From assembly GCA_951406725.2 (NCBI GenBank), contig OX597815.1, forward strand, positions 176,390,001-176,454,000: a stretch of DNA of 64,000 bases, given 5' to 3'. Shown one piece after another: positions 12,745 through 33,843 of this stretch; within the stretch, counting starts at the first letter, position 1; the number at the start of each line of letters is the position of its first letter. The position numbers and the translations under genes are program-made. Source of the stretch: Octopus vulgaris. Taxonomy: Eukaryota. Below the pieces are notes generated by a model. The model ran no database searches. It saw nothing but the letters and a program-made list of their open reading frames with translations, and was not told where the DNA came from.

Positions 12745-12789
12745 TTACTTTTGACAATTTTTTTCCAAAGAGTGAAACCGGTAAAGTAA
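12745..12789 (+). ncRNA. Hammerhead-like motif with U3:A8 core (UUGACAA)
   Basis: TTACTT-TTGACAA-(stem II region)-GAAAC-CG-GTA-AAGTAA; perfect 6-bp stem I; about 40 nt upstream of a (TA)n tract. Confidence 0.6.
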
Positions 12790-13159
12790 ATAAACATCTT
12801 TTAAAATTGCATTTTCAAACCTTCTTTCGTGTATATATATATATATATACATATATATATATATATATATATATATATATATATATATATATATATATAT
12901 ATATATATATATATATATATCTATATATCAGTAATAATCGTGATTGTTTCTTATTAGGAACAAGAGGGTTAATAGGATTGCAAGAGAAGTGCTGAAGTAA
13001 ATGAGACGAGTTTATTCTTTATTTACTTTTTCTTTTTTCGGGTTAAATAAATTTTGAATATTTGGACTGGTCTGAGCATGGTCTCTTAAAAAAGAAATCA
13101 TGCAATGTTGCATCGCTTTTCCCAAAGAAGTCTCGTCTTTGTATGTGGTGTTATTATTT

Positions 13160-13239
13160 TCCCCTGACGAAGGAGTCATTACCGTAATGCACCCTCGTGC
13201 ATTGAATACGTTGATGAACCCCTGAAATGGCCATAAGGA
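13160..13239 (+). ncRNA. Hammerhead-like motif with extended stem II
   Basis: TCCC-CTGACGA-A-GG..(about 50 nt incl. AATGCAC/GTGCATT hairpin)..CCT-GAAA-TGGCCA-TA-AGGA; palindromic stem III. Confidence 0.55.
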
Positions 13240-13339
13240 CTGTAAATACGTTTTTTTGTTTGCTTGGACACCGGCTGAAATTCATCCTACTGAACAACTA
13301 TTTCATGTTCGGAACAGTTTACTATCGACAAGAATGTGA

Positions 13340-13460
13340 AACTGAAGAACCGCTGCCATAAGTGTGAGTCTGAGAGGGGGATGTGTTGAATAAAATCGTA
13401 ATTAATTAATTAATCCTCTGATTCTTTTACTGAAAGCCAGGAACTTTTCAGCACCCCTTC
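13340..13460 (+). mobile_element. Mariner-derived MITE, 3' fragment
   Basis: Homologous to 19330-19433; ends in TIR-like CCAGGAACTTTTCAGCACCCC. Confidence 0.7.
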
Positions 13461-14148
13461 TTTAATATGAGGGATCTAATTCTAGAAACCTCGTAAAACA
13501 ACAAAAAACAAAAACAAAAAAGCTCATGGAGTAAAAAGAGGTCGAATTCAAAGGTGATCACCTACAAATCTTGGGACATTGATAGCTTTGTAAAAGCAAG
13601 TAACAAATTCCTACTTTATATCAAATTAATATTTATGCTTATCTAATTAATTATCTAAAACCATAAATAATTATGAAATATCAAAGCGATTTAGAAATAT
13701 ATCAAAATTGAATAAATTAATGGAATTAAGCAGTAAAAGTTTATTATTCTTAAACTTATATGTAAAAAAAGATTTATATTTTATATATTAAAAAAACCCT
13801 GAATATCTGCATTTGAATACGAATGGAGCAAATGAACCTTCAGAACGTTTTTAAGAAATATAAAAAAGTTTATGAAATTTGTGTTTTGCTTTGGTAAATC
13901 GCGATCGTATAAATTGTTTTCCATATTTGTTTAATGTTATGCATCTGTTGGTTTTTTTTTTATAGCGCTCTTCTCCTGATCATCATAATCGGCAGCAAGG
14001 AAGGAGCCAAACAAACTACTAGCTGACAACGTAGAAGACATGATTACATTGATAATACGAGGCATTGATTTTCATGTTGGCACCGAATGAATCTCGGGTC
14101 TGATCTATGTGAAGAGTCGAGCTGTGTTCCTCTAGAGTGTGAATATCC

Positions 14149-14219
14149 TCAAACCATTCCTGCCTCAAACTGGTCGACTCGTGTTTGCTGTCCTGCTTCT
14201 TGGTTGGGATCATCGAATT
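14149..14219 (-). CDS. Candidate terminal coding exon of an unidentified minus-strand gene ((E)FDDPNQEAGQQTRVDQFEAGMV*)
   Basis: Acceptor AATTTCAG| at 14221-14220; phase-1 start fits exon 32796-32883; TGA at 14151-14149. The polypyrimidine tract is weak. Confidence 0.4.
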
Positions 14220-14865
14220 CTGAAATTCATTTACTGCACCTTATTGCATTTCACTTCTTCGTTCGATTTCCTTATATGAATTTTTATATAAATTATCTCT
14301 TAGTTTATAAAATTTAGCTGTTGGCAATGGTTTAAGATTTTGAAAAAAAAAAGTTTTCATTTTGCTTTTGAGAATGTCTTGGTAGCATTCTTTAGTCTGT
14401 AAAAAAATAGAAAGAACTAAAATGAGTGGAGAAACAGGGAAAATACAGGCGTAAGAGTAATAATAATCTTAATTAAATGACACTGGAAAATTATAGAACA
14501 AGAAGTGGAAGCTTAAATCTATTGTAATTGAAACTGTAATAGGAATTTCAACAACATACGTTTCGGGGCTGGATGTCGGAAGAGACAAATGTTCTTTCCC
14601 TTATTGAAAACCTCAAAAAATCATGTCTAATTGATATGTTACCCAATGATTTATGCTGAATCAGAGGGAGAAAAAAATTAATTTTTGAGCACTTTCGGGA
14701 TGCAGGTTTGTTTAAAGAAGTCAAGAATGAAATTTTAAAATTTGAATTCCAAATTCATTTGGAATATTTCAAAGATTCCACTTCCTGAGTTGTGCTTTTC
14801 ATAGGTTCTGTCGATTAAGTATATTATCACTCCTGCTCCTGCGTTCTTCGTGCTACTTAATAATA

Positions 14866-30880: not shown

Positions 30881-31301
30881 TGATAATAATAATAATAATA
30901 ATGATGATGATGATGATGATGATAATAATAATAATAATAATAATAATAATAATAATAATAATAATAATAATAATAATAATATGAGGGAAAATTATTCGAA
31001 ACTTATAGGAAAAAATTCAATTTAGAAATACTAAATCAAATTTCACAAAATATGATATATATATGTATATATATATATTTATATAAATTAGAAAAAACCC
31101 ACCTTTTATCAATTCAATAAGGAAAAATTAAATCGTAATTTAATTTTTCATTTTCATTATTGAATTGATAAAATGTGTTTTTTTTATGAATGTATGTATG
31201 TATCTATGTATGTATACATGTAAACAGAAAGGAAGCAAAGACTGAAGATTTGCAGACGATGAATATTTTAGTATAAATATAGAGATATTTATATAAATCA
31301 A

Positions 31302-31434
31302 ACTTACACAAAGTACAAACGACAGAGAAAATTAAAGGAGAGCAGGTAAGATGTTACAAGTCTGTCAACTTGTGACTTGTAACACCTTACCTTCTCCCTT
31401 TTAATTTTGTTTGTTGTTTGTACTTTATGTAAGT
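31302..31434. repeat. Imperfect fold-back hairpin next to (TCTA)n
   Basis: ACTTACACAAAGTACAAAC...GGTAAGATGTTACAAGTC / GACTTGTAACACCTTACC...GTTTGTACTTTATGTAAGT. Confidence 0.85.
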
Positions 31435-31556
31435 ATGATCCATCCATCCATCCATCATCTATCTATCTATCTATCTATCTATCTATCTATCTATCTATCT
31501 ATCTATCTATCTATCTATCTATCTATCTATCTATCTATCTATCTATCTATCTATTT

Positions 31557-31752
31557 TTATTTTATTTTCTAAAATTTTCGTTGCGTCTTGCCCTTTTCAA
31601 TAGTTTGATCTGTTATTCTGTTGTGTCTTCCTTATTTTTATTTTTCTAAAATTTTCGTTGCGTCTTGCAGCCTTTTCAATAGCTTTGATTCTTGAGAGTC
31701 AGGACTATTGAAAAGGTTGCAAGACGCAACGAAAATTTTAGGAAAATAAAAA
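31557..31752. repeat. Triplicated module (two direct copies, one inverted) containing a UUGAAAA hammerhead-like motif
   Basis: TTTTCTAAAATTTTCGTTGCGTCTTGC...CCTTTTCAATAG at about 31566 and 31642; inverted copy CTA-TTGAAAA-G-GTTGC-AAGAC-GCAAC-GAAA-ATTT-TAG at 31705-31741. Confidence 0.8.
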
Positions 31753-32795
31753 GAAGAAAAAAGTGGCAACTTTACCGCTGAGTGTTTTAAATTATAAGAC
31801 ACAAACAGAGAATGACTCTCCCCAGATACAACAGAATAAATACATATACTTGCTTTTATAGTATATATATTTGCTTTTATACTTTCAATCATGAAAGTAA
31901 ATAAATAGTTCTTTCACATCTGGTTATATATTCTACAGAAATTTTGTTGTTTACAACTCCATTTTCCGACTGAAAAATGTAGTGTGTATAAAGCAAAATA
32001 TATTAACTTCACTGGAGAACAAATCGATGCATTGAACTGCTTCATATGCATTTTATTGTTAAAGAAATATGAAAGGATTGTCGTCGCTGCTGTCTTCTGT
32101 CTTTACAGCTAAGCAACCAATATATATATATATGTGTGTGTGTGTGTGTATGTACATATATATATATATATATATATATATATATATATACATATACATA
32201 TACATATATATCTGTATATATATATATATATGTGTGTGTGTATGTACATATATATATATATATATACATATACATATATATATATATATACATATACATA
32301 TATATCTGTATATATATATATATATATATATATGTGTATATATATGTATATATGTATGTATATATATATGTATTTATACATATATATACATTTATACATA
32401 CTACTCCTGGGTGACTACATATTCTTTAAAAGGTTTGCTATTTATTCTCTAATGGAAGAAAATATATTTTTTGAAAATTTCATTGAAATTCACAAAGCAT
32501 TGATGGCAGGAGGAAAACACAATAATAGAAAGAAATGTAAATTCTCTCGGTGAATTGTAATTATTTTTGTTTTACTTAATTCATCTTTTGATATTGTATA
32601 TATATATTTTTTTAAGAATGAGAGTTTCCTTTTTACATTTCAAGTATATTCACTACAGGGACGTACGATCTTCAACATGTCTTCACTCATATTTAACAAA
32701 GTACAAATGTCACATAAACGAGTTAATATAACTAGATCAGCGCATGTCAAACTAATAAGACGGAACGAGCAGCGACCGTTACCACTGAACCTTAC

Positions 32796-32883
32796 CTGAA
32801 GACTCACAGATAATGCTGTTAATACTGATGGAGTATTCTTTATCTGACGAGTTAATTTTATCATCACGGTTTTCGTCTACATC
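32796..32883 (-). CDS. Candidate internal exon (DVDENRDDKINSSDKEYSISINSIICESS)
   Basis: Acceptor TTCAATTTAG|, strong donor CAG|GTAAGG, 88 nt open frame, phase 0 to 1. Confidence 0.55.
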
Positions 32884-33805
32884 CTAAATTGAATTTCAGT
32901 TTGGTTTTATTTTATGTATGAATTTTTATGACACTGTCTTGTCGTGTCTATGGTTAAGATGGAATAATATAGAACCATAAAGATGCCACATAACTATACG
33001 TATAGACTAGTGTGCAAACAAGAGTAATATGTAAACCAAACGGCTAACTTAAAGGGTATTAAAGTAGCAGCCATTTTTTTAATAACAAACTAATGAACTC
33101 AGCCTAAAAGAAATAGTCTTCTCTCTATATACGTGGCTTAGCGGTTCGGGCATTCGGCTCACGATCTTAATATCAGTAATTTGTGATAAAAAAAGAAATG
33201 TTCGTAGGGGAAGCGAATGGATGGGCAGGGATGGATTGAGCTACATTGAGTTTAATTCAGAGGAACGGTAATAGAAGGAAGGGAGAGATATGTATGCAGG
33301 GTATAATATCTAGGGGGCGAAATGTTGTTTAGCTAGGTAGCTGAGATCAAGATGCGTGTACACACACACGCACACACACACACACACACACACACACACA
33401 CACACACACACACACACACACGCACACGCACACACACACTTTCGCTGGTACATGCACGCACACACAGGGTACTTTGACCACCCACCCATATTTTCAACCT
33501 CGGCCGTAGTTGATATGATTTATGTCTGAAAGATAACCTCATAGGGAGTGTGTCATCATGTTCGCTGCAAGACCGAAATGATACGCCGGCAGTGTGACCA
33601 ATCGACGACTATTTCATCGAAGGTGAATCACACACCCCTACGGCCATTTATATATATATATATATGACCTCGAACCCACAAGAGTAAACAAGAGAGACAG
33701 AGACAGGCAGAAACAAAGAAAATGTCACTTGTATTTGAGCACTATACAAATATTCTTTTAAAAAAAACTTTTCTTTTAATTTATTCTAAATTTAATTGTT
33801 TGTTA

Positions 33806-33843
33806 CAGTTTAAAAAAGTCTCAATGACTGAAACCGGTACTGA
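33806..33843 (+). ncRNA. Degenerate U3:A8-type hammerhead-like motif
   Basis: CAG-TTTAAAA-A-AGTC-TCAAT-GACT-GAAAC-CG-GTA-CTG; stems intact, G5 mutated; about 45 nt upstream of (TA)n. Confidence 0.5.

What the first reader, a model, noticed from the sequence alone, without database searches (positions are those of the whole stretch)
12745..33843. The U3:A8 hammerhead variant recurs in at least three further unrelated sequence contexts
Seen at 12745-12789 (TTACTT-TTGACAA...GAAACCGGTA-AAGTAA), 33806-33843 (CAG-TTTAAAA-A-AGTC/GACT-GAAACCGGTA-CTG, G5 mutated) and 31705-31741 (CTA-TTGAAAA-G-GTTGC/GCAAC-GAAAATTT-TAG). Stems I and II differ in sequence between them and from the 52-53 kb copies, yet mostly stay paired. 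Two of them sit 40-45 nt 5' of a (TA)n tract. Inference: structure is conserved across several distinct PLE families, so the variant may be a clade-level feature in this lineage.
Basis: partly seen in the sequence, partly recalled or inferred. Interest (0 to 1): 0.75.

Follow-up and report, generated by a model that had tools for sequence, protein, structure and literature searches.

The report
Known hammerhead variant across Penelope families
The three motifs are leftover tail ends of three different jumping-gene families in an octopus genome; each carries a small, likely self-cutting RNA motif with an already published swap of one core base pair, and the swap likely arose several times rather than once.

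Summary
All three motifs are at the stated places. They are the 3' ends of truncated copies of three Penelope-like element (PLE) families; each family was traced to an RT + GIY-YIG ORF elsewhere in the genome. Genome-wide, the U3:A8 pattern with ACCGGT matches 11,435 times against 87 for its control. Stem I covaries across 10 families (36 of 40 pairs; shuffled mean 19.1; 0 of 10,000 shuffles reach it).

The 'clade-level' idea is half right. Sites 1, 2 and the 52-53 kb copies belong to one PLE subclade (support 90/92) that shares U3:A8. Site 3 belongs to a distant clade whose sister family has C3:G8. An AU test rejects one clade even for the nearer U3:A8 families (p=2.5e-5). U3:A8 makes up about 60-75% of one broad motif class; C3:G8, U3.G8 and C3.A8 families also spread.

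U3-A8 is published for phage/bacterial hammerheads (2011) and Schistosoma PLEs (2014). This scan noted it before on other DNA of this genome. These copies are probably inert: site 2's G5 change is unique in the genome, and site 3 is predicted locked in a hairpin. Cleavage was not tested. Verdict: new members of a known kind.

The parts
12745..12789 (+). Site 1: minimal type I hammerhead motif, U3:A8 core, ACCGGT palindrome, GUA triplet (family C)
   Evidence: family C linked to an RT+GIY-YIG ORF between inverted motifs in L051
12268..12835 (+). Approximate extent of the 5'-truncated family C copy (3' UTR with internal repeats)
   Evidence: blastn to L028 and L358, 75-95% identity
12832..12928 (.). 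(TA)n tract at the element's 3' end, likely the insertion target
33806..33842 (+). Site 2: decayed family B motif (G5 lost, one extra A), likely inactive
   Evidence: exact string unique in genome
33666..33886 (+). 5'-truncated family B copy (3' UTR end), followed by (TA)n 33887-33944
   Evidence: 86% to L054, which carries an RT and GIY-YIG ORF
31705..31741 (+). Site 3: minimal hammerhead motif, U3:A8, AATT palindrome, U17 (family D, distant PLE clade)
31695..31838 (+). Family D terminal-repeat fragment, with the ATG (31812) that matches the ORF start of the sister family D2
   Evidence: 91% to L182; N-terminal peptide match between D and D2
31628..31692 (-). Inverted 5'-truncated family D copy with a second motif (one stem II mismatch); forms a -73 kcal/mol hairpin with site 3
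31552..31613 (-). Third family D fragment (2-nt deletion in stem II) abutting (ATCT)n
52334..53158 (.). Family A inverted insertion used for comparison: GIY-YIG C-terminal remnant and two U3:A8 motifs (core to cut site 52474-52449 on -, 53019-53044 on +)

Best explanation
The three motifs are the hammerhead-bearing 3' ends of truncated copies of three Penelope-like retrotransposon families, and their U3:A8 core is a compensatory swap that was likely inherited within one subclade (sites 1, 2, 52-53 kb) and likely gained separately in site 3's distant clade. Shown: family membership, link to RT+GIY-YIG ORFs, stem covariation across families, mixed core states on the RT tree. Inferred mechanism: in the source elements the motif sits in the terminal repeat upstream of the ORF start; two copies pair through the palindromic stem III and cut the RNA after N17, as proposed for minimal PLE hammerheads. 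Selection on source elements keeps the fold but tolerates the route C3:G8 > U3.G8 or C3.A8 > U3:A8, so the swap recurs. Copies paste next to (TA)n or other microsatellites, often with an inverted truncated partner, and then decay. These three copies are probably inert passengers.
For: PLE link: families A (L063, L052), B (L054), C (L051), D (L180-L188). Stem I 36/40 paired over 10 U3:A8 families against 19.1 permuted, 0/10,000; stem II 24/30 against 18.6, 57/10,000. Tree: A, B, C, H in one subclade (90/92); D sister to C3:G8 family D2 (100/99); J and K group with C3:G8 family I (100/98); at least 7 changes among the labelled rows. AU p=2.5e-5. Nearest non-octopus relatives with a readable motif are C3:G8 in 7 of 7, out of 13 loci at 41-49% identity (L242-L254). 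U3:A8 also appears in 3 distant outgroup loci (L263, L287, L294). Intermediate states amplified: U3.G8 392 (control 45) and C3.A8 317 (control 50), both holding recurrent families. One 359-nt repeat lineage has both paired states in homologous context (86% identity). Site 2 and a 361-nt tandem repeat give the double-hammerhead fold as dimer MFE. 12 of 15 family B copies have a microsatellite 50-63 nt after the cut site. U3-A8 reported active in vitro (PMC3088659, passages, citing its ref. 32).
Against: No cleavage was measured. Sites 1, 3 and the 52-kb copy did not give the double-hammerhead fold as dimer MFE, and the AATT duplex is unstable (+2.2 kcal/mol). Young families carry further core or stem defects (D2 with C9 and a non-palindromic stem III; I with C4; youngest H with broken stem I; A subfamilies with U3.G8 and a 1-nt shift), so cleavage may be dispensable. 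For an anole PLE, hammerhead mutants did not affect insertion in vitro and no reads ended at the cut site (PMC11167929, passages). Direction of change is assumed, not inferred from a root. The closest sister proteins (P0029, P0030, P0032, P0033, P0035, P0037, P0038) have no DNA, so their state and host are unknown. Family representatives were picked by core and palindrome patterns, and families A, B, C, E, H are related, so the permutation counts are not probabilities.
Confidence: 0.75

Rival explanations
1. Single clade-level trait: U3:A8 arose once in an ancestral PLE of this lineage and C3:G8 families are reversions or outsiders.
For: A, B, C, H share it; 11,435 against 310 among ACCGGT-type motifs; family B keeps it in contigs of four organism labels.
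Against: D lies across the deepest split of the tree and is sister to C3:G8 D2; AU test rejects joining J and K to the main subclade. With a broader stem III the excess over control is only 19,540 against 12,795. It would need terminal-repeat transfer between distant clades; the hammerhead flanks differ between families.
Confidence: 0.08
2. Host-level pressure: octopus PLEs and retrozymes are selected for weaker, slower hammerheads, so U3:A8 and AU-rich stems evolve convergently.
For: At least 3 inferred origins in coding families plus tandem non-coding families. Stems and flanks of U3:A8 motifs are poorer in G+C (mean 0.36, n=10) than C3:G8 ones (0.49, n=11; p=0.008, rows not independent), while their ORFs are not poorer than three outgroup ORFs (0.37-0.41 against 0.32-0.35).
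Against: Abundant C3:G8 families coexist, some young. S. mansoni already has about 1,300 U3-A8 against about 2,000 standard motifs. No other cephalopod or mollusc genome could be counted. One of four matched contrasts (J, K against I) goes the other way for G+C.
Confidence: 0.15
3. The motif no longer cleaves; it is kept as an RNA shape (protein binding or dimerisation) or is drifting towards loss.
For: Young families with C9, C4, U3.G8, C3.A8 or broken stem I; PMC11167929 in vitro result; low activity of minimal hammerheads in PMC4209133.
Against: G5, A6, G12-A15.1, U16.1 and a paired 3:8 are kept over families that share only 27-55% RT identity; paired states far outnumber unpaired ones (11,745 against 709 for ACCGGT type).
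Confidence: 0.15
4. Chance look-alikes in AT-rich DNA.
For: Sites 1 and 2 fold no better than shuffles; loose patterns do pick up unrelated repeats (10 of 29 scored C3:G8 loci read by eye as LINE coding sequence).
Against: Pattern counts against controls, fixed position in PLE terminal repeats, covariation.
Confidence: 0.01

Closest known systems
Minimal type I hammerheads (min-HHR) of metazoan PLEs, U3-A8 variant of Schistosoma mansoni Cercyon elements (Cervera & De la Pena 2014, PMC4209133; parts 1-2 of 4 read, supplement 2 searched by terms, supplement 1 not searchable)
   Same: Type I topology, short palindromic stem III, place in the terminal repeat, mostly solo or inverted truncated copies, U3-A8 core (about 1,300 hits there). 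Their alignment also shows a UUGAAGA (U3.G8) core in Saccoglossus and an AAUU/U17 stem III in a Crassostrea PLE, as at site 3.
   Different: Host (octopus; no octopus row found in that supplement); U3:A8 is the majority in the class counted here; spread over several PLE lineages; stem II only 1-2 bp in families A and E, and U.U at its base in family C.
Natural U3-A8 hammerheads of Perreault et al. 2011 (PMC3088659, passages read)
   Same: Same compensatory swap, described as occurring in several examples and as active in vitro.
   Different: Those are not PLE minimal motifs.
Neptune/Nematis-type EN+ PLEs with a CX2-5CxxC linker (Craig et al. 2021, PMC8557442, passages read)
   Same: RT, CX4CxxC linker, C-terminal GIY-YIG; 5' truncation, inverted partner, optional tail, microsatellite targets.
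   Different: Clade names were not tested with reference sequences. 'Neptune-like' for A, B, C, H, I, J, K and 'Nematis-like' for D, D2 are recalled resemblances.
Dimer-cleaving small hammerheads of PLEs (Lunse, Weinberg & Breaker, RNA Biol; not held, seen only as reference 134 of PMC6765202)
   Same: By its title, short stem III variants that cleave as dimers.
   Different: Could not check whether it lists octopus or U3-A8 examples.

Membership tests
Minimal type I hammerhead (min-HHR) | Core boxes (C/U)UGAN(G/A)A and GAAA with paired 3:8 | tested here: met
   Met at sites 1 and 3 and in all three families; site 2's own copy lacks G5
Minimal type I hammerhead (min-HHR) | Stems I and II paired with covariation | tested here: met
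   stem II is weak at site 1 (pair probability about 0)
Minimal type I hammerhead (min-HHR) | Palindromic stem III allowing a dimer | tested here: met
   ACCGGT (-8.3 kcal/mol) at sites 1 and 2; AATT at site 3 is palindromic but unstable (+2.2)
Minimal type I hammerhead (min-HHR) | G10.1-C11.1 pair | tested here: inconclusive
   Present in A, D and part of B; A-U at site 2, U.U in family C
Minimal type I hammerhead (min-HHR) | Self-cleavage after N17 | not testable with these tools
   No bench assay; only contigs were available from sequencing runs
EN+ Penelope-like element | RT plus C-terminal GIY-YIG ORF in the family | tested here: met
   RVT_1 and GIY-YIG over Pfam cut-off for B; RVT_1 for C with a GIY-YIG piece by tblastn; GIY-YIG weak for A; D by tblastn and reading
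EN+ Penelope-like element | Motif in both terminal repeats of full-length copies; inverted truncated partners | tested here: met
   Direct pairs in L133 (family A) and L353 (D2); inverted pairs in L051 (C), L054 (B), L187 (D)
EN+ Penelope-like element | Microsatellite insertion bias | tested here: met
   12 of 15 B copies within 50-63 nt; 6 of 7 C copies within 45-94 nt; no background rate was computed in this microsatellite-rich genome
Neptune or Nematis clade | CX2-5CxxC linker before GIY-YIG | tested here: met
   Read directly in the ORFs
Neptune or Nematis clade | Placement with named reference RTs | not tested
   No named reference PLE sequences were available among tool results
Single clade-level U3:A8 trait | U3:A8 families form one clade | tested here: not met

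The most novel reading that the evidence does not exclude
In octopods the hammerhead 3:8 pair has flipped to U:A independently in at least four mobile-element lineages, through wobble or mismatch states that still transpose, until U3:A8 became the majority form: a host-driven convergence on attenuated ribozymes and a natural series for studying compensatory RNA evolution.
Probability: 0.2. Interest if true: 0.5.

Novelty: new member of a known kind. Interest (0 to 1): 0.22.

Why it matters
Practical: searches that demand CUGANGA would miss most hammerheads of the class counted in this genome, and Rfam found none in the window. Evolutionary: sister families with C3:G8, U3.G8, C3.A8 and U3:A8 give a ready set for testing whether PLE hammerhead cleavage matters at all, which is open. 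The three copies themselves are ordinary transposon debris.

Tried and rejected
(1) My first ratio of 37:1 for U3:A8 over C3:G8 was an artefact of demanding ACCGGT; the broader pattern gives 1.5:1 by excess over control. (2) 'PLEs have U3:A8, retrozymes C3:G8' was rejected: a 361-nt tandem family has U3:A8 and coding families I and D2 have C3:G8. (3) General AT drift of whole elements: not supported by ORF G+C. (4) A splice acceptor at family B's stem I (TTACAG): three joints listed, none with intron-type ends, contigs only, so no verdict. (5) A-to-I editing at A8: no such difference in the one guessed-RNA run, but contigs drop rare variants, so no verdict. (6) Expression: no RNA holder listed on record. 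(7) Selection on single copies: a first count of 0/220 core changes was biased by dropping 10 of 30 loci. Redone on 28 of 30 loci picked by upstream DNA: core 4/308, stems 14/448, loops 5/196, 5' flank 19/252; copies do decay in the core. (8) No motif was found for families M, N, O or for 6 of the 13 near outgroup loci. (9) The GTDB scan for family D relatives gave 2 loci and no motif. (10) Lunse et al. could not be read. Paper searches run; none listed a paper on octopus PLE hammerheads, but subscription papers and Repbase are not covered.
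Full report
Observation. The pattern TTGANAAN{8,24}GAAACCGGTH matches 3 times in the window (site 1 and the two 52-53 kb copies) against 0.01 in shuffles, and 11,435 times in the 2.8-Gb genome against 87 for the reversed pattern. The site-3 motif occurs 1,728 times exactly. Site 2's string with G5 lost is unique in the genome. The nearest named proteins carry Octopus labels from their sources.

What the sites are. Each is the 3' end of a truncated repeat copy. Site 1 (family C) matches the motif that flanks, in inverted orientation, an RT + GIY-YIG ORF in L051. 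Site 2 (family B) matches L054 and the 52-53 kb pair (family A) matches L063 and L052. A, B and C share about 55% RT identity, so they are relatives, not unrelated contexts. Site 3 (family D) was walked upstream through a long UTR to a GIY-YIG and RT about 27% identical to B. The short distance to (TA)n is simply the element's end at its target: 12 of 15 B copies have a microsatellite 50-63 nt after the cut site (no background rate computed). Craig et al. (PMC8557442, passages) describe this truncation, inversion, tail and microsatellite bias for PLEs with a CX2-5CxxC linker, which these ORFs have.

Structure. Across 10 U3:A8 families, 36 of 40 stem I positions pair against 19.1 when arms are swapped between families (0 of 10,000); stem II gives 24 of 30 against 18.6 (57 of 10,000). 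Some families are related and were picked by pattern, so these are not probabilities. Stem III is a palindrome that differs by family (ACCGGT, ACATGT, AGCGCT, AATT, ACGCGT). Single copies are less tidy. Only site 3 folds better than shuffles on its own, and in context it is locked in a -73 kcal/mol hairpin with its inverted partner. With 150-nt flanks, stem I pair probabilities fall to 0.05 or less at all three sites. As dimers, site 2 gave the double-hammerhead fold; sites 1, 3 and the 52-kb copy did not.

Is U3:A8 a clade trait? A GIY-YIG search (150 of 6,136 candidates scored) added families H, J, K (U3:A8) and I (C3:G8 with C4). A protein search found D2, a young family with 1,312-codon open frames, sister to D, with C3:G8. 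Metagenome contigs gave outgroups: of 13 loci at 41-49% identity, 7 had a readable motif and all 7 were C3:G8; 3 more distant loci were U3:A8. On the 34-row tree (34 of the 76 sequences written, redundant, short and most distant rows left out; 68-row quick tree) A, B, C and H form one subclade (90/92), J and K sit with I (100/98), and D with D2 (100/99). The fewest changes are 7. The tool warned that long branches meet at the D/L263 join, which does not affect these groups. The AU test rejects joining J and K to the main subclade (p=2.5e-5). Taking C3:G8 as ancestral, which is assumed from the outgroups and the published consensus, U3:A8 arose at least three times in coding families. A 359-nt repeat lineage shows both paired states at 86% identity. 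For family B, contigs from four coded organism labels showed no difference of 3% or more at positions 3 or 8; how far apart those organisms are is unknown.

How common. Among ACCGGT motifs: U3:A8 11,435, C3:G8 310, C3.A8 317, U3.G8 392 (controls 87, 41, 50, 45). With a broader stem III: U3:A8 33,095 (control 13,555) and C3:G8 19,051 (control 6,256), an excess ratio of 1.5:1. Counting the first 100 listed rows of each by eye, about 76 U3:A8 rows in 9.6 Mb and 30-39 C3:G8 rows in 11.2 Mb belong to recurrent hammerhead-like families, about 2-3:1; 10 of 29 scored C3:G8 loci read as LINE coding sequence without stem I (one of 30 loci was missed through a wrong strand label). So U3:A8 is roughly 60-75% of this class. 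Motifs with 2- or 4-nt palindromes were not counted, except family D.

Mechanism. Most likely the motif in source elements pairs with a second copy through stem III and cuts weakly after N17, as Cervera & De la Pena propose (PMC4209133, parts 1-2 read). Selection keeps the fold but lets the 3:8 pair pass through U3.G8 or C3.A8, both seen in amplified subfamilies. Cleavage is inferred. Young families with other defects and the anole PLE result that hammerhead mutants insert normally in vitro (PMC11167929, passages) leave room for a non-cleaving role. U3:A8 motifs have AU-richer stems while their ORFs do not, a weak hint of attenuation.

Comparison and verdict. U3-A8 is in print as a natural covariation (PMC3088659, passages) and in about 1,300 S. 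mansoni PLE motifs; that paper's supplement also shows a U3.G8 core and an AAUU/U17 stem III. Six paper searches listed nothing on octopus PLE hammerheads; Lunse et al. and supplement 1 of PMC4209133 could not be seen and may bear on this. Earlier notes of this scan reported the same variant on other DNA of this genome. New members of a known kind; interest 0.22.

Noticed in passing
window 12073-12099 (+): A second hammerhead-like core (C3, C4, G8; 4-bp stem II; ACGT palindrome) without an adjacent stem I, 650 nt upstream of site 1; it may be the rewired type that earlier notes describe.
   Followed up: no
window 17024-17112 (-): Tail remnant of another D-clade PLE family (N-terminal peptide 68% to D2) next to (AAT)n.
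   Followed up: partly
window 46180-47280 (-); 15046-15633 (+) and about 2578-2964: 366-aa LINE-type RT frame (RVT_1) and mariner-type transposase remnants (HTH_48) in inverted orientation to each other.
   Followed up: partly
L391:1381-2464 (-), G000:C1:8134351-8135463: Near-identical 360-362-nt tandem repeat with a well-paired U3:A8 hammerhead; related copies swap the palindrome ACGCGT/ACATGT.
   Followed up: partly
L353:2263-6198 (+): Young D2 family with 1,312-codon open frames, a long asparagine-rich stretch before the RT (such inserts are described for rotifer PLEs, PMC3846280, passages), and a hammerhead with C9 and non-palindromic stem III.
   Followed up: partly
L171, motif near position 1922 of the element strand: Chimera: family D UTR joined to a D2-type hammerhead right at the core, suggesting a template switch between sister families.
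   Followed up: no
L238:3940-6282 (-): Family H has many identical-scoring 781-aa open frames (young), yet its youngest motif has U17 and mismatches in stem I.
   Followed up: partly
L133:782 and 4759 (-): Family A subfamily with U3.G8 and a 1-nt shift at stem I is amplified genome-wide; contigs of two other organism labels match a 61-nt stretch of it with no difference.
   Followed up: partly
G000:C4:80857199-80857949: 360-nt tandem array whose motif has the mismatch C3.A8 in three successive units; A-to-I editing of A8 would restore a pair, an untested idea.
   Followed up: no
families A, B, C, E, F: Several families share the ACCGGT palindrome, so cross-family hammerhead dimers are possible in principle.
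   Followed up: no
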